Positions 4,867 to 36,897 of a DNA stretch of 64,000 nucleotides are shown here, in pieces. Numbering within the stretch: position 1 is the first letter of the stretch; each line of letters starts with the position of its first letter. The translations under genes and the position numbers were made by a program. The notes under the pieces are model-generated. The model saw only the letters and a program-made list of their open reading frames with translations. It ran no database searches and had not been told where the DNA came from. Location: the IMG/VR virus record IMGVR_UViG_3300010352_001202, one strand, 5' to 3'. This DNA comes from a virus (Duplodnaviria; Caudoviricetes).

Positions 4867-4924
4867 AGTGTTCATTCAGCAATCCACAAAAATCAACTTT
4901 TAATTGAAAATAAAACGAACACTG
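4867..4924 (+). ncRNA. CAGCAA-family RNA with Lys(UUU)-like anticodon loop
   Basis: AGTGTTC/GAACACT-G stem, ATTCAGCAA, TCAA-CTTTTAA-TTGA. Confidence 0.75.
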
Positions 4925-4934
4925 ATTTATTCAT

Positions 4935-5010
4935 GGCGCAGTAGCATAGCGAATTATGCACCTCCCTGTCTAGGAGGCCGACGAGGGTTTGAGTCCCTTC
5001 TGCGTCGCCA
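4935..5010 (+). tRNA. tRNA-Asp(GTC)
   Basis: CCTCC-CTGTCTA-GGAGG, CCA. Confidence 0.85.
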
Positions 5011-5115
5011 GTTATGTGAAGAGTATCGAGCTTACCCTCATAAATACTTTTCACAGTTTAGGTAAGGTATAACGTTGCTTATAACAACTCTACGATACCC
5101 AAACACCTTCTTTAA

Positions 5116-5170
5116 AGAGAACCTACAGCAACTAAAAATTTACTGTAAATGAAACCAAATGTGTTCTCTG
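5116..5170 (+). ncRNA. CAGCAA-family RNA with Tyr(GUA)-like anticodon loop
   Basis: AGAGAAC/GTTCTCT-G, CTACAGCAA, TTTA-CTGTAAA-TGAA. Confidence 0.75.
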
Positions 5171-5205
5171 TTTTGAATTTGTAAATATTTGTGTTACAAT
5201 GTGCT

Positions 5206-5619
5206 ATGGCACTCATCAAATGTACTCATTGCGGAAATGATAAAAGAACTTATGGCACAAGTGCTAATTTGTTTTGTTCACGGCAATGCGCTAACGATTT
5301 CCAATATGAACAGCGTGTAGCTGAATGGAAATTATCGGGAGAAAGTACAAGAATTAGCGGCACGCCAGGCTGGTTACGCAGATATTTTTTTGAGAAGCAA
5401 AATGGTAAATGCGCCGGATGTTTGAATGATACCTGGCGAGAACAACCCATAACTCTTGAATTAGAACATAAAGATGGTAACAGTGACCATAATAAGGAAG
5501 AGAATTTAGAACTTCTTTGTCCAAATTGTCACAGTCAGTCATCGACTTATAAAGCAAAGAATAAGGGTAATGGAAGACATTATCGAAGACAGCTTTATAA
5601 GGAAGGTAAAAGTTTTTAG
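5206..5619 (+). CDS. HNH endonuclease
   Basis: LELEHKDGN...N..ENLELLCPNCH. Confidence 0.9.
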   Translation: MALIKCTHCGNDKRTYGTSANLFCSRQCANDFQYEQRVAEWKLSGESTRISGTPGWLRRYFFEKQNGKCAGCLNDTWREQPITLELEHKDGNSDHNKEENLELLCPNCHSQSSTYKAKNKGNGRHYRRQLYKEGKSF

Positions 5620-5692
5620 CTCTGTTAGTTTAGTGATAGAATGCTGGTTTTGTAGTCCAGATGCGGGAGTTTGATTCTCTCACGGAGCACCA
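5619..5692 (+). tRNA. tRNA-Thr(TGT)
   Basis: Cloverleaf, loop TTTGTAG, ACCA. Confidence 0.8.
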
Positions 5693-5753
5693 CAAAAAGC
5701 TTGATTGATGTATATAAGATCCTGATTCGACACTACGGATATCAAGCACATTT

Positions 5754-5827
5754 CAGGGTATAATGAAATGGTATCATCCCACCTTTGGAGCGTGGAAGCG
5801 GTAGTTCGATTCTACCTACCCTGACCA
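5754..5827 (+). tRNA. tRNA-Pro(TGG)
   Basis: Loop TTTGGAG, GTTCGATTC, ACCA. Confidence 0.85.
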
Positions 5828-5833
5828 GAATTA

Positions 5834-5907
5834 CAGAGTATAATGAAATGGTATCATCCCACCTTCGGAGCGTGGAAGCCCAAGTTCGATTCTTGGTACT
5901 CTGACCA
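5834..5907 (+). tRNA. tRNA-Pro(CGG)
   Basis: Tandem paralog of the previous gene, loop TTCGGAG. Confidence 0.85.
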
Positions 5908-6013
5908 ATATAACACATAACAGAAAGCACAATATGGAATTTTTAGCATTCAACTTAATCATGATTATGATAATGTTATCAGCAAGTCTTGCTGAACAAC
6001 TTATCTAAGACAT

Positions 6014-6087
6014 GGCTCTGTAGCTCAATGGTAGAGCACGCGACTGATAATCGCGCGACGAAGGTCCGATTCCTTACGGAGCCACCA
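6014..6087 (+). tRNA. tRNA-Ile(GAT)
   Basis: CGCGA-CTGATAA-TCGCG. Confidence 0.9.
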
Positions 6088-6093
6088 TACAAT

Positions 6094-6168
6094 GTCCTGT
6101 TCCACTTCGGGTGAGGTGACCTGCCCTTCAAGCAGAGAAGATGGGTTCGACTCCCATACAGGATGCCA
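6094..6168 (+). tRNA. tRNA-Glu(TTC), C at position 33
   Basis: CTGC-CCTTCAA-GCAG, GCCA. Confidence 0.75.
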
Positions 6169-6175
6169 AGTTTAC

Positions 6176-6251
6176 GGGTTTGTAACTCAAATGGCTAGAG
6201 TCCTGCCTCTTAAGCAGCGAGATCCCGGTTCGATGCCGGGCGAACCCACCA
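6176..6251 (+). tRNA. tRNA-Lys(CTT)
   Basis: Loop CTCTTAA, ACCA. Confidence 0.9.
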
Positions 6252-6257
6252 AACAAC

Positions 6258-6301
6258 GGTCCGGACAGAGATCCCTAGGATATATTTCCTCTAGACCACC
6301 A
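6258..6301 (+). ncRNA. Minihelix-like CCA-ended RNA
   Basis: GGTCCGG/CTAGACC-ACCA with a single small hairpin, 44 nt. Confidence 0.45.
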
Positions 6302-6410
6302 TCAAACCGCTTCCACTTGTTTTCTATTGACATATATAAGCCTAGCGGGCCAATTTTGACCTTTCCACATCACTAAATTATATAAGGATAAAAAAAGGTC
6401 TCTTCAAAAT

Positions 6411-6527
6411 GTCGCTGTAGTGTAAAGGTAGCACAACTAAAAAGGTGATCCTGGCAAGGATACATACAGCAATCTACATTCCATTACAAGGAGTAGGTCC
6501 GGTGTTCGATTCCCGCCGGCGGCACCA
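6411..6527 (+). ncRNA. tRNA-shaped, permuted member of the CAGCAA family
   Basis: Acceptor GTCGCTG/CGGCGGC-ACCA with D and T arms; anticodon arm replaced by GTGATCCTG-GCA-AGGATAC-ATACAGCAA plus TCC-ATTACAA-GGA. Confidence 0.75.
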
Positions 6528-6589
6528 TTGACAAGGTTGAGACTGCATGTAATACTTAGTGCTCAACTTACACACCCTGAAAGGTACAC

Positions 6590-7609
6590 ATGAAGAACTA
6601 CATTGGTATTAGTCGTGACCATAGCGGCTCCATGAGCATGATTGCTAATGCAGCAGCCCGCGATTACAACGACAACATCGCTTCCATTAAGGAAGAAGCC
6701 GGCTCGTTCAACATTGACACTATTGTAAGTGTCATTAAGTGTGGAACTGGTCGCCCTGCGCAAAACCGCTGGGATGTTCAGAATTCGAATGTTACGGCGC
6801 TGAAGCCGCTGACTTCGTACATTGCAGACGGTAACTGCACTCCGCTGTTCGACAGCGTGATGATGCTTATCGACCAAATGGAAAGCGTCCCTGACGCAGC
6901 TGATCCTGAAGTTTCGTTCATGGTTATGGTCGTTACTGACGGCCAGGACAATGCTTCAAACACCAAGGGTCCGCAACTGGCGCAACGCATCAAGTCGCTT
7001 CAGGCAACTGATCGTTGGACTTTCGTCTTCCGTGTTCCGAAGGGCGACAAGGCTCCTCTGGTTCGAATGGGTCTCCCGGCAGGTAACATCCTGGAATGGG
7101 AACAAACCGAACGCGGTGTTCAGCAAGCAACTGTTGCTACCAAGTCGGCTATGCGTGGTTTCTACGCTGCTCGCTCCACTGGTGCAACCAGCACTGACAA
7201 GTTCTACGCCGACATGAGCACTACCACCTTGAATGAAGTGAAGGCCGCCCTGGTTGATATTTCCAAGGAAGTGGATGTGTATGTGGTTGATACGAAGAAC
7301 GACGGTGTCTAAATCAAGGACTTTGTGCTTGCGCAAGGTGTTACCTTTACCAAGGGCTGCGCGTTCTATGAACTGAGCAAGACCGAAACTGTGCAAGAAT
7401 ACAAGCAGATCGCCATCCGTGACAAGATTACGGGCGCTGTCTACAGCGGTTTCGCAGCACGAGATTTGCTTGGTTTGCCGCACTACGGTGAAGTAAAACT
7501 TGCTCCGGGCCAGCACGGTCAGTACAACATCTTCGTCCAGTCGACCTCCATCAACCGCAAGTTGGTGAAGGGCACGAATGTGATGATTTGGACTGCTGTA
7601 ACGGTCTAA
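6590..7609 (+). pseudogene. vWA-domain protein interrupted by in-frame TAA (7310-7312)
   Basis: MIDAS DHSGS, TPLFD, VTDGQDN; the same frame continues IKDFV...FTKGCAFYELSK. Confidence 0.7.
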
Positions 7610-7769
7610 GAAACATTAGAGTATGAGATGTATTATAACCATATCCACTACTCTACAGAACATAAGATAGATAACCGGGCCTTGATCATGCAAATCTGTT
7701 GTAAAACAGTAGGTTATCCGTAAGTCGCGGAAGTCAGGACGCCGCGTTATAAATGCGTGGCACGAATAT

Positions 7770-7844
7770 GCGGGTGTGGTGTCAGTGGTAGCATCATAGT
7801 CTTCCAAACTAAAGGTGCGGGTTCGATTCCCGCCATCCGCTCCA
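7770..7844 (+). tRNA. tRNA-Gly(TCC)
   Basis: GCGGGTG, loop CTTCCAA, TCCA. Confidence 0.92.
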
Positions 7845-7860
7845 AATAGAAAGTATCAAA

Positions 7861-8187
7861 ATGTTTAACTGGTTCAAGTTTAAGCCCAAAGAAGATTGGC
7901 GTCTTGTTAAGACTATTGTCGATGATGTATCTCGCAATAGTGGTAAAGAAAAAGGTAAATTCTATTACCATCTGTTTGAATCTAGTCGTGGAAATAGGCG
8001 CGTAGAGTTTGCTTCTACATTTAGCGATCTGGATAAGGAAGCTTTAGAAAAAGCCGGAAAGCATTTTGACACATATCAAGATATGATTTATCGTTGGGAG
8101 CATGGTCGTGTAGATCCTAACATTCCGCGATATGATCAGATCCCCGAAGAAGAGACAGTAAATGTCCTAAAGGGCAAGATTTCGTAA
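7861..8187 (+). CDS. Hypothetical protein
   Basis: ORF between RNA genes. Confidence 0.6.
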   Translation: MFNWFKFKPKEDWRLVKTIVDDVSRNSGKEKGKFYYHLFESSRGNRRVEFASTFSDLDKEALEKAGKHFDTYQDMIYRWEHGRVDPNIPRYDQIPEEETVNVLKGKIS

Positions 8188-8209
8188 TTGTGTGAGGCCT
8201 CACACAAAT

Positions 8210-8297
8210 ATTCGCGTAGTTTAAACGAAAACACCTGCTATTAGGGCATTCAGTTGTTCCAGCAGTAGATATGGGGTTTGGACCCATAGCGACTCTA
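8210..8297 (+). ncRNA. Degenerate tRNA-like element with expanded anticodon arm
   Basis: D-arm GTTT/AAAC, CTGCT..AGCAG enclosing ~21 nt, T-like ATGGG/CCCAT. Confidence 0.4.
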
Positions 8298-8332
8298 TAA
8301 TCGAAGATCGCTTATTAAATGACAACGATAGA

Positions 8333-8551
8333 GTGACATTTAAGATGCATGATCCTCATAGTAACACTGTTAGAAGATCTTATAATTCAGATAACATAGA
8401 TTTAATTGCGTTATATATTCCCGAACTAAAAGAAATAGCTTTAATTCCTATAGACAAGTTTACCACAAATGATGCGGTTGTTAGAGTTAAGGAATTAGTA
8501 GTAAAAAGAAAAAATGCAGCAATATTGTTTTCGGACTTTATTGTATGGTAA
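8333..8551 (+). pseudogene. C-terminal fragment of a PD-(D/E)XK homing endonuclease
   Basis: Y..D.IDLIALY.P.....LIP resembles the C-terminus of 15569-15994. Confidence 0.5.
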
Positions 8552-8556
8552 GTTAT

Positions 8557-8631
8557 GCCCGGTTAGCTCAATGATAGAGCAATTGCTTGATAGGCGATAG
8601 GTTGTAGGTTTGACTCCTACACTGGGTACCA
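8557..8631 (+). tRNA. tRNA-Ile(GAT)
   Basis: ATTGC-TTGATAG-GCGAT. Confidence 0.85.
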
Positions 8632-8637
8632 AACAAT

Positions 8638-8781
8638 AGTGTATCTCCGTGCGGACTTCAATCCTTGTTGCGGAACGAAGACTAGGTTAGAAACCTATAT
8701 ACACTGCCAGAGTATTGATGTATCCAGTGGCTGTAGGCTTCGACTAGGAGCATAGACTAGGTTCGATTCCTATATACATCA
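8638..8781 (+). ncRNA. Two tandem D-arm-less tRNA-like RNAs (8638-8709, 8717-8781)
   Basis: AGTGTAT/ATACACT-GCCA and GATGTAT/ATACATC; shared AGACTAGGTT.GA..CCTATATACA T-arm. Confidence 0.55.
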
Positions 8782-8792
8782 GACAAAACAAT

Positions 8793-8871
8793 TCCGCAGA
8801 AACCGAGCAAGGTGCATGGTCTTGACTGTTAATCAATGGTTAGAGTGGTTCGATTCCACTGTGCGGAGCCA
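8793..8871 (+). tRNA. tRNA-Asn(GTT)
   Basis: Loop CTGTTAA, GCCA. Confidence 0.85.
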
Positions 8872-8880
8872 GATTTTTAT

Positions 8881-8953
8881 ATGTTTATGGTGCAGTGGCA
8901 GCACTCCCTCCTTCCCAGAGGGCGACCGGGGTTCGAATCCCTGTAAACTTCTA
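8881..8953 (+). tRNA. tRNA-Gly(TCC), degenerate acceptor stem
   Basis: CCCTC-CTTCCCA-GAGGG; weak acceptor, no CCA. Confidence 0.55.
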
Positions 8954-9052
8954 TAAAACAAATGTAGAGTATTGTGTGGCCACACAATACCTAAGCAGGA
9001 GTATAGCAAGTTCCAAGGGGGAATCGTTTGCATCCTACTCCGAATCTATTAT

Positions 9053-9126
9053 GAGTCATAAGTGTTACGGTAGCACATCAGTCTCCAAAACTGAGGGCCG
9101 GGGTTCGACTCCCTGACGACTCGCCA
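9053..9126 (+). tRNA. tRNA-Trp(CCA)
   Basis: TCAGT-CTCCAAA-ACTGA. Confidence 0.9.
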
Positions 9127-9176
9127 ACAATCCGACTTTAGCTGATGTGGTCATAGCGCCTGTCATAAATATAATT

Positions 9177-9833
9177 ATGAACTATCGGCAATTTAGTAAT
9201 AAATGGATATGTAATCTTTGTGAGCGATCGTTCTCTAGCAGACAGGCCACTACATCTCATATCTACAGGGCACATACCGAGCCCGGCGTCTCGCTTGGCG
9301 GCCATAAAAAAGGCAAACCCGCATGGAACAAAGGGCTTTCTAAGGAAACAGATGCAAGGGTGGCCGAAAATGCTATTGCGGTTTCCTTAGCAACTAAGGG
9401 TCGTCCGGGACATCCGCAAACAGAGGAATCCAAAAGAAAGATAAGTCTATCTAAGTCTATCAATAATAAGGGCGGCAGATGTAAATGGTTTGAGATTGCC
9501 GGCCAGAAAGTTCAGGGGACTTGGGAACGAGATATTACACTAAAGTTTGAAGAACTTAATATCAAATGGCAGAAGCTAAAAACAAATCAACATACATTTG
9601 ATTATGTAATGGATTCTAAAACAAGATGTTATACACCGGATTTTTATCTTCCGCAATACGGCATATACCTAGAAATAAAAGGTCGCTGGTGGGGTAGAGA
9701 TAGAGAAAAAATGGATATTGTTATGAAAACATATCCTGATAAAAAGATTGTTATTATAGAAAAACAAGATTATGAAAAGATTTTGCGAGGTGAGCTAGTG
9801 TGGTCATTCCAGCGGCTGCCTGAAGAGCAGTAG
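9177..9833 (+). CDS. Homing endonuclease (zinc finger, NUMOD3-like, PD-(D/E)XK)
   Basis: CxxC..H..H, PAWNKG, YTPDFYLP...LEIKG. Confidence 0.85.
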   Translation: MNYRQFSNKWICNLCERSFSSRQATTSHIYRAHTEPGVSLGGHKKGKPAWNKGLSKETDARVAENAIAVSLATKGRPGHPQTEESKRKISLSKSINNKGGRCKWFEIAGQKVQGTWERDITLKFEELNIKWQKLKTNQHTFDYVMDSKTRCYTPDFYLPQYGIYLEIKGRWWGRDREKMDIVMKTYPDKKIVIIEKQDYEKILRGELVWSFQRLPEEQ

Positions 9834-9863
9834 AACCAGGTTCGATTCCTGGACCTCGCACCA
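9785..9863 (+). tRNA. tRNA-Phe(GAA)
   Basis: GCTGC-CTGAAGA-GCAGT, ACCA. Confidence 0.85.
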
Positions 9864-9943
9864 ACATATTGTTCGATTCCTGGAGGTCGGGCCAGGTTTA
9901 CTCTTCCTCGAGATAAATAAAAGTATAATCTCGGAGAGAAAAC

Positions 9944-10864
9944 ATGAACATTATCAAAAGTGTTTCTATCATTTTAGTTTCAGTAGTTGCGTTAGCTGGT
10001 TGTGCTTCAACACATGATTACCAGATGTATGCGCAAGGACAGGCACAAATCGAAGCAGCAAAGTATGCTGCCGAAGCAGCTCGCTTCAAGGCAATGTCAG
10101 ATATTGCAGCAAGCGGCGATCCAACAGCAAAGGTGGCAGCAGTAGTTGCCCTAGCAATGACAGGCAATGGTTCTGGCGGTAATTCGGGTAATGCAGCTCA
10201 ACTAAGAGCCCCCGAAGCACCTGGACAAACAGCACTTGCGTGGGCAAGCATCTTTGTTCCTGCATTGACACAAGGCTATAGCATCTATTCCAACACAAGA
10301 CTTGGAATGGCACAGAGCAACAACAATGCTCGCGTAGCAGAAAGCACAAACGGTGCATTCCTTGGAATGGCTGGACAAATTCAATCAACAGCAACAAGTG
10401 GTAACGCCGCTCTTGCACAGTTAGGAACATCGAGCAATACTGCTATTACAGCGGTTGCTGGTGCAGGAACACAGGCGCTAACTTCGCTTGCAACTTCGAG
10501 CAACCAGTCGCTTGTATCGCTATCAAGCTTAATTCAAGCACCGCAACCTAATGTAAGTTATACATTGAGCGGTACTGGTGTTCTAGGTAACGGAACATAT
10601 ACAACCACAGCTAACTCGTTAGGTGGCAATGGTGTAATTGGTTCTGGTTCATATAGCACACAACAGAATCCAGTACTGAGCGGAACTGGTGTTATTGGTA
10701 GTGGAACACATAATCCATCTACAGTAACAACACCTGCTCCTGTAGTTATTACTCCTGTTGTAACAACACCACCTGTTGTTATTACACCAGTAAACAATGT
10801 TACTCCAGTAGTTATTACTCCTGTGGTTGTAACACCGCCAGCAGCGGCTGCATCAGCACCGTAA
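9944..10864 (+). CDS. Lipoprotein with Pro/Val/Thr-rich tail
   Basis: Lipobox LAGC; G.GVIGSG and PVVIT repeats. Confidence 0.75.
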   Translation: MNIIKSVSIILVSVVALAGCASTHDYQMYAQGQAQIEAAKYAAEAARFKAMSDIAASGDPTAKVAAVVALAMTGNGSGGNSGNAAQLRAPEAPGQTALAWASIFVPALTQGYSIYSNTRLGMAQSNNNARVAESTNGAFLGMAGQIQSTATSGNAALAQLGTSSNTAITAVAGAGTQALTSLATSSNQSLVSLSSLIQAPQPNVSYTLSGTGVLGNGTYTTTANSLGGNGVIGSGSYSTQQNPVLSGTGVIGSGTHNPSTVTTPAPVVITPVVTTPPVVITPVNNVTPVVITPVVVTPPAAAASAP

Positions 10865-10916
10865 GTTGGTTTAGTATTTTCACATAGTAGGTGCTCTTGC
10901 ACCTACTTTCATTTAT

Positions 10917-10993
10917 GCCCCCGTACGCTAATTGGTAGTGCGGATTGATTTAGAATCAGTTGGTTGGGAGTTCGAATCTGCCCGGGGGTACCA
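10917..10993 (+). tRNA. tRNA-Leu(TAG), short V arm
   Basis: ATTGA-TTTAGAA-TCAGT. Confidence 0.85.
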
Positions 10994-10999
10994 AGTTTA

Positions 11000-11102
11000 A
11001 GGGATGGTTGCAGCAAACAAAAATTACTCTTACCATAATCAAGAGGCCGGCCCGCTGGGGGTGTGTCGTGGGTTCGAGTCCCGGCTTAGACACCTCATCC
11101 CG
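11000..11102 (+). ncRNA. CAGCAA-family RNA with T-loop and CAU-containing hairpin
   Basis: GGGATG/CATCCC-G, TTGCAGCAA, CTCTT-ACCATAATC-AAGAG, GGGTTCGAGTCCC. Confidence 0.7.
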
Positions 11103-11118
11103 ATTTTATTTGACCGTT

Positions 11119-11235
11119 AGGTTCGTTTCAGCAAACAATATAATTCATCTTCAAAATGAAAGATCTGGGTTCGAATCCCAGCAGTAGGGTTGGTCACTAC
11201 TGTCGTCTAATGGATAGGATATAAATACGAACCTG
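11119..11235 (+). ncRNA. CAGCAA-family RNA with permuted tRNA domain and UCA anticodon loop
   Basis: AGGTTCG/CGAACCT-G; TTCAT-CTTCAAA-ATGAA; T arm; loop-closed acceptor CAGTAG/CTACTG; D arm. Confidence 0.8.
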
Positions 11236-11248
11236 TTTTTAATTCAAT

Positions 11249-11322
11249 GGTGTTAGTAGTGTAGTGGTAGCAAGCTTGTCTGTGAAACAAGAAGCGAGGG
11301 TTCGATTCCCCCTTTCACCCCA
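11249..11322 (+). tRNA. tRNA-His(GTG)
   Basis: G-1, CTTGT-CTGTGAA-ACAAG, CCCA. Confidence 0.88.
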
Positions 11323-11329
11323 ATAGTTT

Positions 11330-11526
11330 GGTTGTTTAGCTCAGACGAGAGCACGGAAGAAACCTCTTAACAATGTTGGTCTCCGGGGTCGCAGAAGTAA
11401 TGCCCTGCAACAGCCACCAAATCGATACCGTCGTCATTATCCGGAGCAAATCCTTCCGGGTTCTAAATGAACAAGGCGCCTAGATGCTGGCGTATATTAC
11501 AGGTTAGATTCCTGTCGGCGATGCCA
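11330..11526 (+). ncRNA. Two atypical CCA-ended tRNA-like RNAs (11330-11419, 11430-11526)
   Basis: GGTTGTT/AACAGCC-ACCA with elongated anticodon arm; the second has four hairpins, T-arm ACAGGTTAGATTCCTGT, GCCA. Confidence 0.55.
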
Positions 11527-11666
11527 GTTGCTTTCCTGTAGTGGCTGTCTTATAATAAATACAGATATATAACTATGCGAGCGTCCTTCCGCTTATCTAC
11601 AATGCTCTAAGGTGCCGCAGCGGAAATGCGGTGAAAATTTGTCGTTATTTCTATCTAAAGAACAAT

Positions 11667-11743
11667 GTGCGTGTGACCCGAATTGGCGAGGGAACAGATT
11701 GCAACCCTGTTATATGTAGGTTCAAGTCCTATCACGCACTCCA
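11667..11743 (+). tRNA. tRNA-Cys(GCA)
   Basis: Loop TTGCAAC, TCCA. Confidence 0.88.
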
Positions 11744-11753
11744 AAATTTGATA

Positions 11754-11920
11754 CATTCTACAACGGGTTGCAGAGAGTGCAACATTATCAAACCGCTGTG
11801 GAGGCGTTGGCAGCCCACTATACTCGGAGAGCCATATTCGAGTGTTTAGTCCTTTAATGGATGAGGCCCTCGGCACCCTGTCGGTCTGGTGGAGGCAGGA
11901 TAGAAGCTAACTGTAGAATG
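11754..11920 (+). ncRNA. Unassigned multi-hairpin RNA
   Basis: Closing CATTCTACA/TGTAGAATG; internal GTTGCA/TGCAAC, ACTCG/CGAGT. Confidence 0.45.
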
Positions 11921-11931
11921 AACTATTCAAT

Positions 11932-12008
11932 GCCCCCGTACGCTAATTGGTAGTGCGGTCTGATTCAAAATCATATGGTTGTAGGTTCGAATCCAACCGG
12001 GGGTACCA
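11932..12008 (+). tRNA. tRNA-Leu(CAA), short V arm
   Basis: Loop TTCAAAA; same body as 10917. Confidence 0.85.
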
Positions 12009-12030
12009 AAAATATTACGATAAATATAGG

Positions 12031-12723
12031 ATGATCCTAAATTTAGCAAACGGTAATCTAAGCACGGTATTAGACTTTTCTATACCTACCACACTTCCCG
12101 AAGTAGGAAGTATTAACAACATATCTGTATTTTCGTCCGGCGGACTTGATTCGGGTGCATTGTTATGTTTGATAATGTCGGAACTTAAGGCAACAGGTCA
12201 GCTCGACACATTACCGGTAACCTGCTACACAGGTATAAAATACGACGGTGCAACATATTATGCATCGCGTCTGGTATCAAAGATAGCAGAACATTTTTCG
12301 TGTAACATTATTCATAACAACAATGTCGAAAACGATGTTGTAGAGACAGGCCGATTCAGATTTATTGCATCAACTGAACCCAATACCGTTGTGTATGCAG
12401 GTATCAGTCGAATGGTGCCAGAATCGGTAAAAGAATTTAAGAATAAGCTAAAGGTAAAGTATCCAAACGAATTTGGAAAATACAAGTTTCCTTTTTTGAA
12501 TATGGCAAAGCCACAGATACTAGATATCTATTATAAGCTTGGTTGTGAAGACATTATACAATACACGCATTCGTGTGTAAATTTAGCTGTAAGTAAATGC
12601 AATAATTGCTATTCATGCGAAGAGCGAGCCTGGGCATTTACAGAGTTAATGAAATCTGATACAGGGACTGTGCCACCGGATGTAGTAGACATATCCTACA
12701 ACGGCACTTGGCAAGTTTCGTAA
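12031..12723 (+). CDS. QueC-like PP-loop ATPase
   Basis: SGGLDS, PFLNMAK, THSC...CNNCYSCEER. Confidence 0.75.
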   Translation: MILNLANGNLSTVLDFSIPTTLPEVGSINNISVFSSGGLDSGALLCLIMSELKATGQLDTLPVTCYTGIKYDGATYYASRLVSKIAEHFSCNIIHNNNVENDVVETGRFRFIASTEPNTVVYAGISRMVPESVKEFKNKLKVKYPNEFGKYKFPFLNMAKPQILDIYYKLGCEDIIQYTHSCVNLAVSKCNNCYSCEERAWAFTELMKSDTGTVPPDVVDISYNGTWQVS

Positions 12724-12726
12724 CAT

Positions 12727-12952
12727 GGGATCTGTGTCCTGCTCGGCCCTAGGCGCATATGCTGAGAAAGGCTTGGAGTAAGCCGTATAGGCCGGCGGGT
12801 TCGAACCCCGTAGGTTCCACCAAAGTCAATGGGCCCATAGAAGTCACTATTCTATACACCTTTAGGTCCACCAAATATCGGGCCGCAAAATGCTTGCAAA
12901 CTAAAACTTTTCGGCAGAATTACACCAGGGTCGCGCCCTGGGCGGTCCACCA
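12727..12952 (+). ncRNA. Three tRNA-like RNAs with G3.U70 Ala acceptor stems (12727-12822, 12831-12873, 12880-12952)
   Basis: All start GGG and end TCC-ACCA; D and/or anticodon arms non-canonical or missing. Confidence 0.6.
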
Positions 12953-12995
12953 ATAATAGTCTGCGTATGATAAGCAAAGAACAGACCTACTTTAC

Positions 12996-13071
12996 GCCGA
13001 TGTAGCTCAGTGGGTAGAGCGGCAGCCTGAAAAGTTGCGCGTCACTGGTTCGATTCCAGTCTTCGGCACCA
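12996..13071 (+). tRNA. tRNA-Phe(GAA)
   Basis: Canonical cloverleaf, loop CTGAAAA. Confidence 0.93.
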
Positions 13072-13097
13072 ATCACTAAGACATAGTCTTATAAAAC

Positions 13098-13168
13098 GCA
13101 ATAGTAGCTTCAAGGGTAGAGCGCAACCGCAAAGGCGAGGTTATAGGTTCGAGTCCTGTCTATTGTAG
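13098..13168 (+). ncRNA. tRNA-like RNA with collapsed anticodon arm
   Basis: GCAATAG/CTATTGT, intact D and T arms, only CC-GCAAA-GG between them. Confidence 0.55.
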
Positions 13169-13177
13169 AAAATTTAT

Positions 13178-13254
13178 GCCCGGAGAGCGCAGCTGGCGAA
13201 GCCATCCTCCTTACAAGTGGAAATTGTAGAGTTCGATTCTCTATCCGGGTACCA
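13178..13254 (+). tRNA. tRNA-Val(TAC)
   Basis: Loop CTTACAA, ACCA. Confidence 0.8.
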
Positions 13255-13258
13255 TATT

Positions 13259-13351
13259 GGGTGATGATGCAGAGCGGCCTCTGTCCCTGTCTTGAAAACA
13301 GATGTATCGATGATGAGTCGGTAGGCGATCGACACGACCCCTCACCCGCCA
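13259..13351 (+). tRNA. tRNA-Ser(TGA), atypical T arm
   Basis: CTGT-CTTGAAA-ACAG, long V arm, GCCA. Confidence 0.65.
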
Positions 13352-13361
13352 TAAATATAAT

Positions 13362-13703
13362 ATGTTCAGCGTATTTTTCAAACTTTATAACCGTCCTGGC
13401 ACAAATGTTCCTGTAGGATTTCGTACAGGCCATACCGATATACCGTATAAAGTTTTGTTCAGGACGAAGGGCATAACGGTTGATAGAATCTTTATACCTG
13501 CTAGTGCTATAATAGAGTACAGCGGCATGTATCAAGGAGATATTAAGCCGGGATCAGAAGAATGTAGATTTCAAATGGGCAATCCGGACTACCAATATAA
13601 GTTGTATTTGGTAGCAGATAACATGTCAGAAGCCCAAGCAGCACATTTTTCAAAAACATTATCGGAGAAGCTTAGTTCTTCTCAATTATTCATGCGTGCT
13701 TAG
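13362..13703 (+). CDS. Hypothetical protein
   Basis: ORF after ATAAATA motif. Confidence 0.55.
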   Translation: MFSVFFKLYNRPGTNVPVGFRTGHTDIPYKVLFRTKGITVDRIFIPASAIIEYSGMYQGDIKPGSEECRFQMGNPDYQYKLYLVADNMSEAQAAHFSKTLSEKLSSSQLFMRA

Positions 13704-13767
13704 TTAAATGGTATAATTATTGGTTGCCATCCAGTAGTCAGGAGTTCGATTCTCCTAGCCCGCACCA
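13694..13767 (+). tRNA. tRNA-Gly(GCC)
   Basis: ATTGG-TTGCCAT-CCAGT. Confidence 0.85.
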
Positions 13768-13776
13768 AGTTTCTAA

Positions 13777-13832
13777 AGGTTACATTCAGCAAACAAAACT
13801 AACTTTCAATTGGTGAAAAAAACTGTAACCTG
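13777..13832 (+). ncRNA. CAGCAA-family RNA
   Basis: AGGTTAC/GTAACCT-G, ATTCAGCAA, TTTCA-ATTGG-TGAAA. Confidence 0.75.
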
Positions 13833-13838
13833 AATTAT

Positions 13839-13914
13839 CGCGTAGTGGCAGAGCGGCTAGAGCGCCTCCCTCATAAGGATGAATACACTGGTTCGAATCC
13901 AGTCTACGCGACCA
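13839..13914 (+). tRNA. tRNA-Met(CAT)
   Basis: Loop CTCATAA, ACCA. Confidence 0.85.
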
Positions 13915-14004
13915 CAGAATTATTGACTCTCAGTGTTTATACTTAGTAAAATTGTGCGGTCGCAGCAATTTTGCTAAATACTTATACAACACACTGGGAA
14001 AATC

Positions 14005-14178
14005 ATGTTAAAGCAAATTATTGAATTCATTAGAGACATTTTCAGATCACAAAGTATGTACGATAGCCTCGATGCATACATTACTGCTCATAATCCGCAG
14101 AACGCCGGCGATGTGGATCGCCTAGAAAAAGAATTCTATCAGCGCCGTTCGATTTCGGCATTTGAAAAATACTATTAA
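14005..14178 (+). CDS. Small protein (57 aa)
   Basis: MLKQIIEFIRDIF...DAYITAHNPQNAGDVDRLEKEF; RBS GGGA. Confidence 0.6.
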   Translation: MLKQIIEFIRDIFRSQSMYDSLDAYITAHNPQNAGDVDRLEKEFYQRRSISAFEKYY

Positions 14179-14179
14179 T

Positions 14180-14250
14180 CTCACCGCTAATGGATTAGCG
14201 CCGTCGCTACGAACGATGGCTAGGGGGTTCGAATCCCTCCGGTGGGTCCA
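14180..14250 (+). tRNA. tRNA-Arg(ACG), short D arm
   Basis: CGTCG-CTACGAA-CGATG. Confidence 0.75.
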
Positions 14251-14255
14251 TTTAT

Positions 14256-14332
14256 ATCTCCATCGTCTAGTGGCTATAGGACGCTTGCCCCTCAAGCAGG
14301 AAAGTCGGGTTCGAATCCCGATGGGGATGCCA
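14256..14332 (+). tRNA. tRNA-Glu(CTC), C33
   Basis: CTTGC-CCCTCAA-GCAGG. Confidence 0.85.
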
Positions 14333-14339
14333 AATCAGT

Positions 14340-14420
14340 TGGGAGTAAAGTCCGAAGTGGCCCGAGGCGTCTGCCTTTGAAGCAGAAATTTAGCTGGTTC
14401 GAGTCCAGCACTCCCTGCCA
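14340..14420 (+). tRNA. tRNA-Gln(TTG)
   Basis: TCTGC-CTTTGAA-GCAGA. Confidence 0.85.
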
Positions 14421-14428
14421 ATTACAAT

Positions 14429-14505
14429 GTGCCTATCGTCTATCGGTTTAGGACGACACCCTTTCACGGTGTAAAGCGGGGTTCGATTCCTTCTTGGGAT
14501 TACAG
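14429..14505 (+). tRNA. tRNA-Glu(TTC), mismatched acceptor (possible pseudogene)
   Basis: ACACC-CTTTCAC-GGTGT; poor acceptor pairing. Confidence 0.55.
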
Positions 14506-14510
14506 AATAT

Positions 14511-14602
14511 GGATGGCGGGCAGTGCGGCAAATGCAACACCCTGCTAAGGTGTAGGCTTGTGATGAACAGGCCGCTGGGTTCGACTCCCAGGCCATCCTC
14601 CA
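14511..14602 (+). tRNA. tRNA-Ser(GCT)
   Basis: Loop CTGCTAA, long V arm. Confidence 0.88.
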
Positions 14603-14608
14603 GAGATT

Positions 14609-14929
14609 ATGATAGAATTTACAATAGACAAAGTATATCTAACGTCGTTGACAGTTAGGACTGAATATAAATCAAAGTTTGAGAACACCGAAGAAGGTCT
14701 TGTCGAAGCTTTGAAATATGCCGGTACCTGTTTTATGACAAGTTCAATTGATCATCCTGAGTTTACTAAACTTAGGGAACAGTTGGGCGCCGAGGGATAC
14801 ATTAGCATTCAGCGCGGTTGGTGGAACGGCGATGCTGTTCTTAAACCTTTTAAACTAAACGGTAAGAAGTTTAAGAAAGGTAATCAATTTCCGTCAGCTT
14901 GTGCTATTAAGTGGGTTCTGGAGCATTAA
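14609..14929 (+). CDS. Hypothetical protein
   Basis: ORF track. Confidence 0.6.
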   Translation: MIEFTIDKVYLTSLTVRTEYKSKFENTEEGLVEALKYAGTCFMTSSIDHPEFTKLREQLGAEGYISIQRGWWNGDAVLKPFKLNGKKFKKGNQFPSACAIKWVLEH

Positions 14930-15086
14930 ATGACAAGTAGAACTATCGATATTCATTGTGAAGCATGTAGAAAATATCTATTTTCGCTTCAGCCCAATGA
15001 TAGTAAAGGTCTAGCAAAGGATTATTACTGTAAGGCTAAGACTTGCCAGATGCAGGCAACTGTAGATAAGCTAAAGAAAGAACCAG

Positions 15087-15398
15087 ATGTCAAATGATAC
15101 AGCGGACAAGATAAAGAATTATGTCGATCACATTGATGATCACATAGCAATGGCGCTTAACCTAGCACAACAGATGCAGGCAGTGGTCCTAGAGACCGAA
15201 GGCGACAGTGATTTGAACCGTAAATTGGCGTTTTACCTAATCCCGAACCTAACACATTGGGTCGCGGGAGCCCAGGCGGGCAATATGAAGGATTTAAAGG
15301 AAACATTAGCAAGGCGACTTGCTACTCAGGAGAGCAATATGTTACAATCGCAGCAAGGCGAAGGACACGACGTCCTAACTAAACCTTCGAAAACCTGA
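15087..15398 (+). CDS. Hypothetical protein
   Basis: ORF track. Confidence 0.6.
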   Translation: MSNDTADKIKNYVDHIDDHIAMALNLAQQMQAVVLETEGDSDLNRKLAFYLIPNLTHWVAGAQAGNMKDLKETLARRLATQESNMLQSQQGEGHDVLTKPSKT

Positions 15399-15402
15399 CA
15401 AG

Positions 15403-15476
15403 GGGCTCGAAGCTTTAAGGTGAAGCATCGGACTTTTAATCCGATGAAGAGGGGTCAGTACCCTCCGGGCCTACCA
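15403..15476 (+). tRNA. tRNA-Lys(TTT)
   Basis: TCGGA-CTTTTAA-TCCGA. Confidence 0.85.
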
Positions 15477-15486
15477 ATTTTACATT

Positions 15487-15560
15487 GGGGGCATGACGTA
15501 GTGGTAGCGTCTCTGGCTTTTACCCAGATGGCCACAGTTCGATTCTGTGTGCCCCTACCA
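15487..15560 (+). tRNA. tRNA-Lys(TTT), variant loop
   Basis: TCTGG-CTTTTAC-CCAGA. Confidence 0.85.
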
Positions 15561-16038: not shown

Positions 16039-16101
16039 AGAGTGCTTCCAGCAAACACAAAAATTTCAAAACCATTATCTTTGAAAAGAAAAAGCATTCT
16101 G
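16039..16101 (+). ncRNA. CAGCAA-family RNA
   Basis: AGAGTGC/GCATTCT-G, TTCCAGCAA, TTTCAAA-ACCATTATC-TTTGAAA. Confidence 0.75.
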
Positions 16102-33847: not shown

Positions 33848-34081
33848 ATGACTAAATATCGCATTATTGTCAATTCCTCTACAGTCTATCCTTTTAGGGT
33901 ACAGAAGAAGGATCCTGGTTGGTTTTCTTTTTGGACAGAAATTGCCATGGAAGACACACAGGAACAGGCCGAGTTTAGATTGAAAGAATACATAAGGGCT
34001 AAAATTCCTCCCGTCGGGACAATTGTGAAAACATATGATGAACAGGATCTTTTAGCCGACATTTTAAAGGGTAACATGTGA
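33848..34081 (+). CDS. Hypothetical protein
   Basis: ORF track. Confidence 0.55.
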   Translation: MTKYRIIVNSSTVYPFRVQKKDPGWFSFWTEIAMEDTQEQAEFRLKEYIRAKIPPVGTIVKTYDEQDLLADILKGNM

Positions 34082-34269
34082 ACGAATCCTGGGAAGTAAT
34101 TATCGAGGAAGATGAGCACGGTGAGCTTATTCTTCCTTTTCCGCCTGAACTAATTAAGAAATATAATTGGTTAGAAGGCGATGATATTGAATTTGAAATC
34201 AAAGAAGGCTTTGTTGTTATTACGAATACAACTGCCAAAATGCGGGAACAGGAAAGCGGCTTAGGCTAA
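34078..34269 (+). CDS. AbrB/MazE-like DNA-binding protein
   Basis: LILPFPPELIK..NW.EGD.IEFEI. Confidence 0.7.
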   Translation: MNESWEVIIEEDEHGELILPFPPELIKKYNWLEGDDIEFEIKEGFVVITNTTAKMREQESGLG

Positions 34270-34276
34270 ATAATGG

Positions 34277-35659
34277 ATGGCCAATCTAATCCTGTGGAAT
34301 TGTCTTAACGACAAGCGTTTTCCTGTAAGAACATTATCCTGTTACCAATTAGCATCCTGGTTGCGTCAGCACGGCTATACAGTTAAGGTCATTGACTTCT
34401 GTCATTTAATGTCAACTGATGACCTTGTTGCTATCACAGAAAAACATATAGGTACTGATACACTTGCAATAGGAGTGAGCTCTACATTTTGGAGCGATGT
34501 CTTCAAGTGGAACACCGGCGAGCCCGAATGGATATTATCTGCCCGTGCAAGATTAGAGAATAAGAATCTATATTGGCTTGTCGGTGGCTCGCAAGCACAG
34601 TCCGAAAACTTTAAGAATGTGTGGGTTAGATTTTCTGGAAATGCAGAAGACGAACTTCTTAAATGGATGGACAATAATAGTTCTAAACTAAGATTTAGAA
34701 ATCTGTTTGATATAAAATCAGCAACTACGATATTTTCGGCAGACGATTATATTAGACCATCGGAAGTGCTACCTATAGAAATGGGTCGTGGTTGCCAGTT
34801 CAAATGTAGGTTTTGTAGTTATCCCTTAGTAGGTAAAAAGAAGGGAACATACATGAAGGACTTTAGTCTAATAAGAGAAGAGTTTATTAGAAACTATAAT
34901 GAATTCGGAACTACAAAATATTATGTGCTTGATGACACAGCCAATGAAAGTGAAGAAAAAGTAAATGCGTTGGCAGATATTGTCCAGTCTCTTCCCTTTG
35001 AATTATCGTGGACAGGATACAATAGATTAGATCTAATTTGGAGTCGACCCAACACAATACAAACTCTAAAGGATAGCGGGCTGAAGTCCTCATTCTTTGG
35101 TATTGAAAGTTTTCATCCCGAAGCAAGTATGGCCATTGGCAAGGGTTGGAACGGAAAGCATGGTAAAGAGTTCTTGTTAGAACTAAAAGATAAGTGGAAA
35201 ACAGATGTTACTTGGGGTCTATCTTTCATAGTGGGATTACCTGGCGAACTTGCCGAGCACATCGAAGAAACAGATGATTGGTGTGCAAAGAACGGTATGT
35301 ATCATTGGAATTTTTATCCACTGTCCATAAACAAGTTTTCTGGTAAGGTCTGGAAAAGCGAATTTGAATTAGAGCACGAAAAATACGGTTATACCTTCCC
35401 CGGGGAGCAAAATGTCAGTTGGGTAAGCGATAACTGGACATTCGGAAAAGCCGTATTGTACACGCAGGAATTGAATAAACGGCACTACGATAAAGCACAT
35501 TTAGTTTCGTGGCCTCTATTTGAATTATCTTCACTTGGCTACAGCATAAATGAGTTAATGGATAAGAAACTTGTGCAACACCCGTGGAAGCGTTATACAG
35601 CAGAGACAAGTAATTTTATCAACGAGTACACACAACATCAGCTGGCGCAGGTTGTGTAA
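34277..35659 (+). CDS. Third radical SAM enzyme of the same family
   Basis: RGCQFKCRFC, LDDTAN, FGIESF, FIVGLP. Confidence 0.9.
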   Translation: MANLILWNCLNDKRFPVRTLSCYQLASWLRQHGYTVKVIDFCHLMSTDDLVAITEKHIGTDTLAIGVSSTFWSDVFKWNTGEPEWILSARARLENKNLYWLVGGSQAQSENFKNVWVRFSGNAEDELLKWMDNNSSKLRFRNLFDIKSATTIFSADDYIRPSEVLPIEMGRGCQFKCRFCSYPLVGKKKGTYMKDFSLIREEFIRNYNEFGTTKYYVLDDTANESEEKVNALADIVQSLPFELSWTGYNRLDLIWSRPNTIQTLKDSGLKSSFFGIESFHPEASMAIGKGWNGKHGKEFLLELKDKWKTDVTWGLSFIVGLPGELAEHIEETDDWCAKNGMYHWNFYPLSINKFSGKVWKSEFELEHEKYGYTFPGEQNVSWVSDNWTFGKAVLYTQELNKRHYDKAHLVSWPLFELSSLGYSINELMDKKLVQHPWKRYTAETSNFINEYTQHQLAQVV

Positions 35660-35875
35660 CATAAAATAATAAGTTATAATGCGAACATGAGAAATAACAA
35701 GACAACAGCGACCGCTCCGCTTCGTACGAGCGAAACAGTGGATGTGCTTACCCAACAGATTTTGGGTCTAATCAAACGCGAAGGTTCTGGACAGTTCGAA
35801 TCTATTGATCAAACAAAGGTTGTTCCAGAAAAGAAAGTAAGAAAGTCGAAAAAGACTAAATAAGACATTGCCCAA

Positions 35876-36352
35876 GTGATATTGATTGAAGATTATTTAT
35901 TGTTATCGAAAGATGAGAGACAAAAGCATCTTCGATTAGATGATCCATGCATTGAGCGCGGCGGTCCGAGTAAGGGTGGTTTATCTTCTTACTGTAAAGG
36001 ATTAATGGCACATCAGCTTGACACCACGATACCGGTTGGGCATAAAATACATGTTTGCCATGCATGCAATAATGAAAAATGCAGTAATCCAAATCATTTG
36101 TATTGGGGAACTGCAAAAGAGAATAGATTAGACCAGATAGCAAATGGAACAGATAAGTCTATATGGCAACGCACAGTTGATAAATATGGCTTAGAGACAG
36201 CAAGAAGATTAAATTCACACAGAAGTATCGGTAATAATAATGCCGGTAAAAATAAGATTGCCCCTTTGGCGGAATTGGTAGACGCACTGGATTTAGGTTC
36301 CAGCACCGAAAGGCGTGGGAGTTCGAGTCTCCCAGGGGGCACCATAGTTTAG
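35876..36352 (+). CDS. HNH endonuclease
   Basis: VCHACNN..CSNPNHLYWGT.KEN. Confidence 0.85.
   Translation: MILIEDYLLLSKDERQKHLRLDDPCIERGGPSKGGLSSYCKGLMAHQLDTTIPVGHKIHVCHACNNEKCSNPNHLYWGTAKENRLDQIANGTDKSIWQRTVDKYGLETARRLNSHRSIGNNNAGKNKIAPLAELVDALDLGSSTERRGSSSLPGGTIV
36260..36344 (+). tRNA. tRNA-Leu(TAG), long V arm
   Basis: Canonical class II. Confidence 0.93.
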
Positions 36353-36548
36353 TTAGCCCACCTTGGGCACCAAATAAAATGAAAGATTTTTTCCTCTCTA
36401 TTCCAATGTACATTTTAGGTGCCATATCTGATTGGTATGGCAAGAATTATATTGGTGAACAATTTGAGGAAGACGATTTTGATATATTGAAGCCATTTGA
36501 CATTGATGAATGGCATGCACAGCATACGACAGAAGAGGATAAAAAGGT

Positions 36549-36807
36549 TTAGAGTGACCGGTACGGCCCGGCCGATACCAAGAACGTTTCGTAGTGTCGT
36601 TGACCCAAAACAATTTCAGGTATCGCCTGAGGTCGACATTACGAAGTGCCCAGATATGATACCTGTTCCCTGTACTAAAAAGGTATTAGTTTGGATTGGG
36701 GGAATAATTGGCCCTCGCGTTGTGAGTTATCTTCTGCGTACATCAGGAGACTCTAAGTTACTTACAGCATTGTCAATTTGGTGAAAAAGCGGTTTTAGTT
36801 ACTCTAA
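36549..36807 (+). ncRNA. Unassigned structured RNA
   Basis: Closing TTAGAGTGAC/GTTACTCTAA; TTCGTAGTGTCG/CGACATTACGAA. Confidence 0.5.
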
Positions 36808-36843
36808 TTTAATAATTTTTGACCTCGCAGTTACGAGTCTTAA

Positions 36844-36897
36844 AGAATGCGTTCAGCAATTAAAAATCAAACTTGTAATTTGAAAATAAGCATTCTG
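36844..36897 (+). ncRNA. CAGCAA-family RNA with Thr(UGU)-like loop
   Basis: AGAATGC/GCATTCT-G, GTTCAGCAA, TCAAA-CTTGTAA-TTTGA. Confidence 0.75.

What the first reader, a model, noticed from the sequence alone, without database searches (positions are those of the whole stretch)
4867..36897. CAGCAA RNAs display isolated anticodon stem-loops: candidate decoys or sensors for anticodon nucleases
Seen: the cargo of the short members is one hairpin with a tRNA anticodon-type loop. CUUUUAA (Lys UUU, 4867) is identical to the loop of tRNA-Lys 15403, CUGUAAA (Tyr, 5116) to the tRNA-Tyr loops, and CUUGUAA (Thr UGU, 36844) to tRNA-Thr 57666. Others are CUUCAAA (UCA, 11119), AUUACAA (Val UAC, 6411), CAU-containing loops (11000, 16039) and UGG (13777). 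Known: PrrC and PARIS AriB cut tRNA-Lys(UUU), retron Ec78 PtuAB depletes tRNA-Tyr, and enteric VapC cuts tRNA-fMet. Inference: these non-chargeable RNAs could titrate host anticodon nucleases, act as cleavable tripwires that release the Ro-like protein or ligase, or recruit modification enzymes.
Basis: partly seen in the sequence, partly recalled or inferred. Interest (0 to 1): 0.9.

Follow-up and report, generated by a model that had tools for sequence, protein, structure and literature searches.

The report
Phage RNAs displaying bare anticodon loops
A giant phage makes small RNAs that carry just the anticodon hairpin of a tRNA (lysine, tyrosine, threonine) on a shared handle that probably docks on its Ro60-like protein; the hairpins are clearly under selection in many phages and most likely serve as baits for bacterial tRNA-cutting defence enzymes, which nobody has yet tested.

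Summary
The core observation holds; three of the eight loop readings do not. Elements 4867, 5116 and 36844 are 54-58-nt RNAs: a 7-bp handle plus CAGCAA, carrying one hairpin whose loop is identical to the phage's own tRNA-Lys(UUU), Tyr(GUA) or Thr(UGU) loop. In viral homologs such loops are far above chance (60/220 vs 1.6 shuffled). Stems covary around a fixed loop, close homologs switch anticodon but keep the loop frame, and Lys-UUU makes up 38-42% of loops vs 3.5% of neighbouring tRNAs. The 'CAU' loops (11000, 16039) open with ACCA and resemble acceptor ends; 13777 is a D-loop-like AUUGG hairpin; the UCA loop of 11119 is not conserved. So the fMet/VapC link fails, and AriB/OLD cleavage motifs are mostly absent. 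The neighbouring DUF2828 protein folds like Ro60. Best reading: a Y-RNA-like family whose short members are non-chargeable baits for loop-reading tRNA nucleases (decoy about 0.4, tripwire about 0.17). Binding, expression and protection are untested. This scan noted the family, and once the anticodon baits, on other DNA; I found no paper describing them.

The parts
4867..4924 (+). Short handle RNA with isolated tRNA-Lys(UUU) anticodon stem-loop (loop 4897-4903); follows a tRNA-Ala-like gene
   Evidence: homologs with covarying stems; Dicty Class I hit 31.6 bits
5116..5170 (+). Short handle RNA with isolated tRNA-Tyr(GUA) anticodon stem-loop (loop 5143-5149)
   Evidence: closest homologs carry Tyr, His-GUG or Phe-GAA loops
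36844..36897 (+). Short handle RNA with isolated tRNA-Thr(UGU) anticodon stem-loop (loop 36872-36878)
   Evidence: closest homologs carry Thr, Lys, Ile-GAU-like or Ser-UGA-like loops
13777..13832 (+). Short handle RNA with AUUGG hairpin (loop 13809-13813); D-loop-like class, not a Pro anticodon loop
   Evidence: similar hairpin in KVP40, KP13-26, A511 and an Erwinia jumbo phage
16039..16101 (+). Short handle RNA with 7-bp hairpin whose loop starts ACCA (16071-16079); acceptor-end-like, not fMet
   Evidence: hairpin identical in four relatives while the handle covaries
11001..11102 (+). Handle RNA with ACCA-opening hairpin plus T-arm-like hairpin
   Evidence: homologs L309 and L279 keep ACCA and lose CAU
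11119..11235 (+). Handle RNA carrying a circularly permuted tRNA (anticodon arm, V, T, sealed acceptor, D); YrlA topology plus an anticodon arm; anticodon varies among orthologs
   Evidence: YrlA layout from PMC4201824
6411..6527 (+). tRNA-like gene with encoded CCA in which a permuted handle is inserted between D arm and anticodon arm (loop AUUACAA 6483-6489)
   Evidence: sequence; weak tRNA score 22.4 bits
17240..17323 (+). Handle RNA carrying T arm plus sealed acceptor-like stem, no anticodon loop
49412..49588 (+). Long handle RNA, non-tRNA cargo
52644..52850 (+). Long handle RNA, non-tRNA cargo
53281..53390 (+). Handle RNA with conserved non-tRNA cargo upstream of DUF2828
54031..54150 (+). 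Variant handle (CCGCAA) with T-acceptor-D cargo lacking an anticodon loop; closest to YrlA
   Evidence: sequence
54877..54909 (+). Minimal handle (9-nt cargo) in the leader of the DUF2828 gene; candidate autoregulatory site
   Evidence: conserved before the gene in L120, L127, L133, L138
54925..56313 (+). DUF2828+DUF7788 protein, Ro60/TROVE-vWA fold with invariant DxSxS MIDAS motif; presumed partner of the handle
   Evidence: Pfam; alignment; AlphaFold pLDDT 82.7; Foldseek top 13 hits all Ro60/TROVE
50663..51760 (+). RNA ligase (PF09414 + PHA02142), possible resealing partner
15403..15560 (+). Two tRNA-Lys(UUU) genes, one with the canonical loop and one with altered CUUUUAC

Best explanation
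These are Y-RNA-like small RNAs. A conserved handle (AAG, 7-bp stem, CAGCAA, closing CUG) docks on the phage's Ro60-like DUF2828 ring and presents interchangeable tRNA parts. The short members present only an anticodon stem-loop, so they cannot be charged or translate. They are cut out of the tRNA-array transcript and act as baits that occupy host nucleases that read the anticodon loop (PrrC/RloC type, Cas13/HEPN type, colicin-E5-like), above all those aimed at tRNA-Lys(UUU). This spares host and phage tRNAs. The handle would hold a cut bait together, so the phage ligase might reseal it. Shown: handle, loop selection, Lys skew, Ro fold, co-occurrence. Inferred: expression, protein binding, cleavage, protection, resealing.
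For: Handle is real: 554 hits vs 3 in reversed DNA. Loop frame selected: 60/220 vs 1.6; loop-blind 81/241 vs 18.6. Stems covary around CUUUUAA, chosen without regard to pairing: 121/135 Watson-Crick cells vs 75.8 +/- 4.2 in column shuffles (related sequences inflate this). Close homologs switch anticodon but keep the frame. Lys-UUU is 26/62 (15/39 non-redundant) vs 53/1513 tRNAs in the same loci. It occurs in 7 of 12 DUF2828 lineages under 60% identity, one of them found by a Lys-targeted search. fMet/Met is the commonest tRNA there but only 1 ASL. Stems are weak (1.0 vs 2.6 G-C pairs) and A31-U39 in 53/62, fitting PrrC's preference for destabilised stems and an ASL minimal substrate (PMC2275089). 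RloC and Cas13b6 cut isolated ASLs; Cas13a prefers U-rich anticodons. The phage's second Lys and Thr tRNAs have altered loops, a pattern linked to nuclease pressure (PMC10264068). DUF2828 has the Ro60 fold. The handle is found in 9 of 10 sampled DUF2828 phages plus Aeh1, and not in T4, T5 or PAK_P1, which lack the protein.
Against: No expression or binding data. Hairpins are marginally stable. PrrC and RloC work best on modified ASLs, and whether these RNAs are modified is unknown. A cleavable bait must compete with abundant host tRNA; extra host tRNA-Thr gave little protection against OLD (PMC12445682). AriB and OLD motifs are mostly missing (5/32, 1/62). Of ten cultured DUF2828 phages sampled, only DLP6 had a strict short ASL (Lys-CUU), and none had the Lys-UUU bait. 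Many siblings carry cargo with no anticodon, so bait cannot be the whole family's role.
Confidence: 0.4

Rival explanations
1. Adaptor: the ASL is a docking site that tethers a host anticodon-reading protein (LysRS/ThrRS/TyrRS anticodon domain, a modification enzyme, or a ribosome stalled at a hungry codon) to the Ro ring, as Y RNA tethers PNPase.
For: Tethering is the shown role of bacterial and phage Y RNAs (PMC4201824, PMC12135203). Siblings display other tRNA surfaces (D-loop-like, ACCA, T arm), which suits a recruitment library. Loops keep the canonical sequence.
Against: Does not explain the roughly tenfold Lys-UUU skew or anticodon switching as simply as an arms race does. Weak stems are poor ligands for synthetases or the ribosome (inference).
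Confidence: 0.22
2. Tripwire: the RNAs gate the Ro-like protein; a cut in the loop destabilises the RNA and frees or remodels the protein, switching on RNA repair or protection. Several loops on one handle act as an OR-gate.
For: Y RNA gating of Ro is known. A sensor needs few copies, which avoids the stoichiometry problem. A minimal handle in the DUF2828 leader offers a feedback site. An RNA ligase gene lies 3 kb upstream of DUF2828.
Against: The protein-binding handle is untouched by a loop cut, so release is not automatic. Many non-ASL siblings would keep the protein bound. No effector output was identified.
Confidence: 0.17
3. Repair donor: the ASL is a spare part or splint for tRNAs whose anticodon arm was cut or amputated.
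For: OLD amputates the anticodon arm of tRNA-Thr(UGU) and ligases cannot fix it. A ligase and a Ro-like protein are encoded nearby.
Against: ASL stems are A/U-rich and unlike the stems of the matching phage tRNAs, so they could not pair in register. No precedent.
Confidence: 0.06
4. Neutral remnants of permuted tRNAs shortened by deletion.
For: A series from whole permuted tRNA to bare handle exists.
Against: Compensatory stem changes around a fixed loop, frame-preserving anticodon switches, and a spectrum unlike neighbouring tRNAs.
Confidence: 0.05

Closest known systems
YrlA/YrlB Y RNAs with Rsr/Ro60 (Rfam RF02553; Chen et al. 2014, PMC4201824)
   Same: Terminal stem with a protein-binding motif near the 5' end; permuted tRNA domain in T-acceptor-D order (11119, 54031); a Ro-fold protein in the same genome. 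Hughes et al. 2020 (PMC7790460) speculated that YrlA could competitively inhibit an anticodon nuclease.
   Different: Motif CAGCAA, not GNCGAAG; partner is DUF2828, not Pfam TROVE. YrlA has no anticodon loop and is not a nuclease substrate, whereas these carry true anticodon loops, some in isolation. There are 14 copies spread over 50 kb.
Thermus phage phiLo Ro60 with Yrl1/Yrl2 (PMC12135203; PDB 9KOP, 9L5Y)
   Same: Best structural match to DUF2828 (TM about 0.56); a phage Ro-RNA complex proposed as counter-defence.
   Different: CGAA motif; acts on PNPase; 17% identity; no anticodon mimicry described.
Dictyostelid Class I RNAs (Rfam RF01414; Kjellin et al. 2021, PMC7919456)
   Same: Start AAG, end CUGU, short terminal stem with an adjacent conserved motif, variable interior, 42-65 nt; five window copies hit the model (22-36 bits).
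   Different: All below the gathering score of 41.5; eukaryotic; reported partner is Rnp1A; no tRNA cargo described.
Phage tRNA countermeasures (T5 resistant tRNA-Lys/Thr/Asn vs PARIS; T4 Pnk/Rnl1 vs PrrC)
   Same: Same targets (Lys-UUU, Thr-UGU, Tyr) and same genomic setting in tRNA arrays.
   Different: Those replace or repair tRNA and are selected to resist cutting. These cannot be charged and keep the canonical loop.

Membership tests
YrlA (RF02553) | GNCGAAN0-1G Rsr-binding motif | tested here: not met
   All copies carry CAGCAA (one CCGCAA)
YrlA (RF02553) | Rfam model match | tested here: not met
   No RF02553 hit listed at gathering score in the window or at E<=10 in 4700-17500
YrlA (RF02553) | tRNA-like domain in T, sealed acceptor, D order inside the terminal stem | tested here: inconclusive
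   Met by 11119 and 54031, not by the short ASL members
YrlA (RF02553) | Encoded within about 4 kb of a Ro60 ortholog | tested here: inconclusive
   Four handle RNAs lie within 2.3 kb of DUF2828; the ASL members lie 18-50 kb away
Y RNA (functional class) | Binds the Ro protein | not testable with these tools
   Only co-occurrence and a conserved leader copy
Ro60/TROVE-vWA proteins | HEAT-repeat ring plus vWA fold | tested here: met
   Foldseek top 13 hits are all Ro60/TROVE, E 3.6e-10 to 7e-6, TM 0.38-0.60
Ro60/TROVE-vWA proteins | MIDAS DxSxS motif | tested here: met
   D269, S271, S273 invariant in 48 sequences
Ro60/TROVE-vWA proteins | Pfam TROVE or sequence match to a solved Ro60 | tested here: not met
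   Pfam DUF2828 + DUF7788 only; no Ro hit by phmmer
Dictyostelid Class I RNA (RF01414) | AAG start, CUGU end, short terminal stem, adjacent conserved motif | tested here: met
   (G after the stem is fixed; the next base is often but not always U)
Dictyostelid Class I RNA (RF01414) | Gathering score 41.5 | tested here: not met
   Best 36.0 and 31.6 bits
tRNA | Acceptor stem with a free 3' CCA, D and T arms | tested here: not met
   Absent from 4867, 5116 and 36844; not called by ARAGORN or Rfam
tRNA anticodon arm | 7-nt loop with Y32, U33, R37 on a 4-5-bp stem | tested here: met
   4867, 5116, 36844, 11119; enriched in homologs. Not met by 11001, 13777, 16039; 6411 has A32.
AriB/OLD substrate | U36-A-A-U-C (AriB) or paired CNG (OLD) in the stem | tested here: not met
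   5/32 and 1/62 homolog ASLs; none of the three window ASLs has C40
PrrC/RloC/Cas13 substrate | Cleavage of the displayed loop | not testable with these tools
   Literature shows isolated ASLs can be substrates

The most novel reading that the evidence does not exclude
Phages keep an evolvable panel of non-chargeable tRNA-part baits (anticodon loops that switch identity, D-loop and CCA-end mimics) on one Ro-bound handle, and use it as a reusable RNA sponge or alarm against tRNA-cutting immunity: a third counter-strategy besides resistant tRNAs and tRNA repair.
Probability: 0.4. Interest if true: 0.88.

Novelty: new variant of a known kind. Interest (0 to 1): 0.68.

Why it matters
tRNA cleavage is a common end point of bacterial immunity, and the known phage answers are resistant tRNAs and repair enzymes. 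A 55-nt RNA bait would be a third answer and is cheap to test. The anticodon spectrum of the baits would also read out which tRNAs are attacked in uncultured hosts. The family offers a likely ligand for the uncharacterised DUF2828 proteins (matches in 711 phage records; also reported in plants) and a lead on the orphan Class I RNAs of social amoebae.

Tried and rejected
Genome-contig scan with a handle pattern: dominated by chance matches, none near DUF2828, so no phage-vs-host comparison was possible. Metagenome scan was Lys-targeted and mostly noise; it was left out of all enrichment and covariation counts and contributes only two loci (L707, L727) to the lineage count. Sequencing runs: no RNA holder listed; DNA contigs X1/X2 match the stretch but may be its source. 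No whole genome is held. Rejected: fMet/CAU mimicry (homologs keep ACCA, not CAU); Pro-UGG reading of 13777 (context AUUGG resembles D-loops: A at -3 in 0.64 vs 0.66 of D-loops and 0.02 of Pro loops); 11119 as a conserved opal suppressor (anticodon varies); general UGA recoding (TGA is the stop of 22/68 long ORFs). NCCA-opening loops are only borderline enriched overall (13 vs 5.7; 7 vs 3.7 non-redundant), so the acceptor-end reading of 11001/16039 rests on their own homologs. A/U bias as the cause of the Lys skew was rejected (UUU is 3.6% of shuffled hits). Ten literature searches found no description of these RNAs; the library is partial, and the original PrrC-ASL paper was not held. Complex prediction was not used because it cannot score RNA.
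Full report
Setting. The window is the tRNA region of a giant phage: 46 tRNA calls and a permuted tmRNA. Relatives are 360-385-kb viral contigs, and the DNA is held by activated-sludge runs that may be its source. At 54925-56313 lies a DUF2828+DUF7788 gene, and at 50663-51760 an RNA ligase.

The handle. The elements share a fixed geometry: AAG, a 7-bp stem, three bases, CAGCAA, a variable cargo, the complementary strand and a G. A detector for this found 554 hits (405 unique) in the viral loci fetched, against 3 in the same DNA reversed. The stem changes freely in sequence at positions 3-7 (pairing there is required by the detector). The window holds 12 strict copies, one CCGCAA variant (54031) and one permuted copy inside a tRNA-like gene (6411). 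Many start just behind a tRNA's CCA, so they are probably cut from the array transcript (inference).

Checking the loops. Three claims are exact. Element 4867 carries CUUUUAA as in tRNA-Lys 15403, 5116 carries CUGUAAA as in both tRNA-Tyr genes, and 36844 carries CUUGUAA as in tRNA-Thr 57666, each on a 4-5-bp stem with nothing else of a tRNA. Two more loops are real but sit in long members: 11119 is a permuted tRNA and 6411 a tRNA-like gene with a handle inserted. The UCA loop of 11119 is GUA, UGA or degenerate in orthologs. Three readings are wrong. In 11001 and 16039 the 9-nt loop begins ACCA right after the stem, as a sealed acceptor end would, and both close homologs of 11001 lose the CAU but keep ACCA. 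Element 13777 has a 5-nt AUUGG loop whose context resembles D-loops, not Pro loops. This UGG class is itself enriched (38 vs 12.9) and is the commonest short cargo in the cultured phages sampled.

More than chance. Among 220 homolog cargos of 28-50 nt, 60 have a CU-NNN-A[A/C] loop on at least 4 pairs, against 1.6 +/- 1.3 in dinucleotide shuffles; after removing elements over 80% alike, 37/142 against 1.0. Picking the best hairpin without looking at its loop gives 7-nt loops in 81/241 (18.6 in base shuffles), with C32, U33, A37 and A38 at 0.77-0.91 and variable positions 34-36. Around CUUUUAA, chosen without regard to pairing, 121 of 135 stem cells are Watson-Crick against 75.8 +/- 4.2 after column shuffling, with double-sided changes at every pair; relatedness inflates this figure. 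Near-identical elements switch anticodon but keep the frame: Tyr, His, Phe for the 5116 type, and Lys, Thr, Ile-like, Ser-like for the 4867/36844 type.

Which anticodons. Lys-UUU is 26/62 of strict loops (15/39 non-redundant), against 53/1513 tRNAs in the same loci and 3.6% of shuffled hits. It occurs in 7 of 12 DUF2828 lineages cut at 60% identity, one found by a Lys-targeted search. Tyr-GUA, Thr-UGU and Gly-UCC follow. CAU, the commonest tRNA anticodon there, gives one loop. Stems are weak (1.0 vs 2.6 G-C pairs) and closed by A31-U39 in 53/62.

The protein. The AlphaFold model (pLDDT 82.7) matches only Ro60/TROVE structures in its top 13 hits, led by the Thermus phage phiLo Ro60; the MIDAS motif is invariant. 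A minimal handle sits in the gene's leader here and in relatives. Handles were found in 9 of 10 sampled cultured DUF2828 phages and in Aeh1. T4, T5 and PAK_P1 have tRNAs but no DUF2828, and gave only two long, coding-like matches. Binding itself is inferred.

How it likely works. A non-chargeable RNA that keeps a canonical loop under selection must be read by something that reads anticodon loops. An ASL is the minimal PrrC substrate and PrrC prefers weak stems (PMC2275089). RloC and Cas13b6 cut isolated ASLs, and Cas13a prefers U-rich anticodons. The phage also keeps second Lys and Thr tRNAs with altered loops. I therefore favour baits that titrate loop-reading nucleases (0.4). AriB and OLD are poor candidates: their stem motifs appear in 5/32 and 1/62 loops, AriB also reads the D-loop, and extra substrate tRNA did not protect against OLD. 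Some long homologs carry D arm, anticodon arm and T arm with the handle in place of the acceptor stem (L191, L254, L300), which could serve such enzymes. Against the decoy model: modification dependence, competition with abundant host tRNA, marginal hairpin stability, and no Lys-UUU bait in the cultured phages sampled. The adaptor (0.22) and tripwire (0.17) readings fit the same sequences.

Comparison with what is known. The family works like Y RNA but is not YrlA by motif or Rfam score. It resembles Dictyostelid Class I RNAs below threshold. Competitive inhibition of an anticodon nuclease was floated for YrlA, which lacks the loop. I found no paper on these RNAs or on isolated anticodon baits in phages. 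Earlier notes of this scan describe the same family, and one describes the same bait idea in another phage; these are not independent support, and the numbers above are my own.

Verdict. A real and strongly selected feature, three of eight loop readings corrected, function untested. New variant of the Ro60/Y RNA system; interest 0.68.

Noticed in passing
window:29890-30558 +: Short RF1-type release factor (PxT, GGQ) with an in-frame TGA at 29995, at a position that looks like a conserved Trp; the stop is kept in 7 relatives and two distant homologs have two TGAs. Earlier scan notes cover it.
   Followed up: partly
window:13777-13832 and KVP40, KP13-26, A511, Erwinia pEa_SNUABM_12: The (A/U)UUGG hairpin class is the most widespread short cargo. 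It could be a D-loop mimic or pair with tRNA CCA ends, as T-box antiterminators do.
   Followed up: partly
L191, L254, L300, L182 (handle elements): Acceptor-less tRNAs (D arm, anticodon arm, T arm) closed by the handle: a second permutation that keeps a whole elbow and anticodon.
   Followed up: partly
window:36750-36805 +: Degenerate handle-like stretch (CAGCAU) followed by an AUUUGG hairpin just upstream of element 36844.
   Followed up: no
window:12720-12955 +: Several CCA-ending tRNA-like fragments without a canonical anticodon arm; tRNA-like 13098-13167 also lacks a normal anticodon loop.
   Followed up: no
window:30971-31373 +: Permuted (two-piece) tmRNA matching the betaproteobacterial model, hinting at the host group.
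   Followed up: no
window:4783-4857, 6093-6167, 8794-8869, 43172-43247, 62896-62969: tRNA genes missed by ARAGORN: Ala-like, Glu-like, Asn-like, fMet-like and a further one, read from sequence; three have Rfam hits of varying strength.
   Followed up: no
window:37336-38870: About 1.4 kb with little coding content and many hairpin-like stretches between tRNA genes; no Rfam hit other than tRNA; possible further large RNA.
   Followed up: no
L603 (Stenotrophomonas phage DLP6): Cultured phage with a CAGCCA-variant handle carrying a Lys-CUU loop; a tractable test system.
   Followed up: partly
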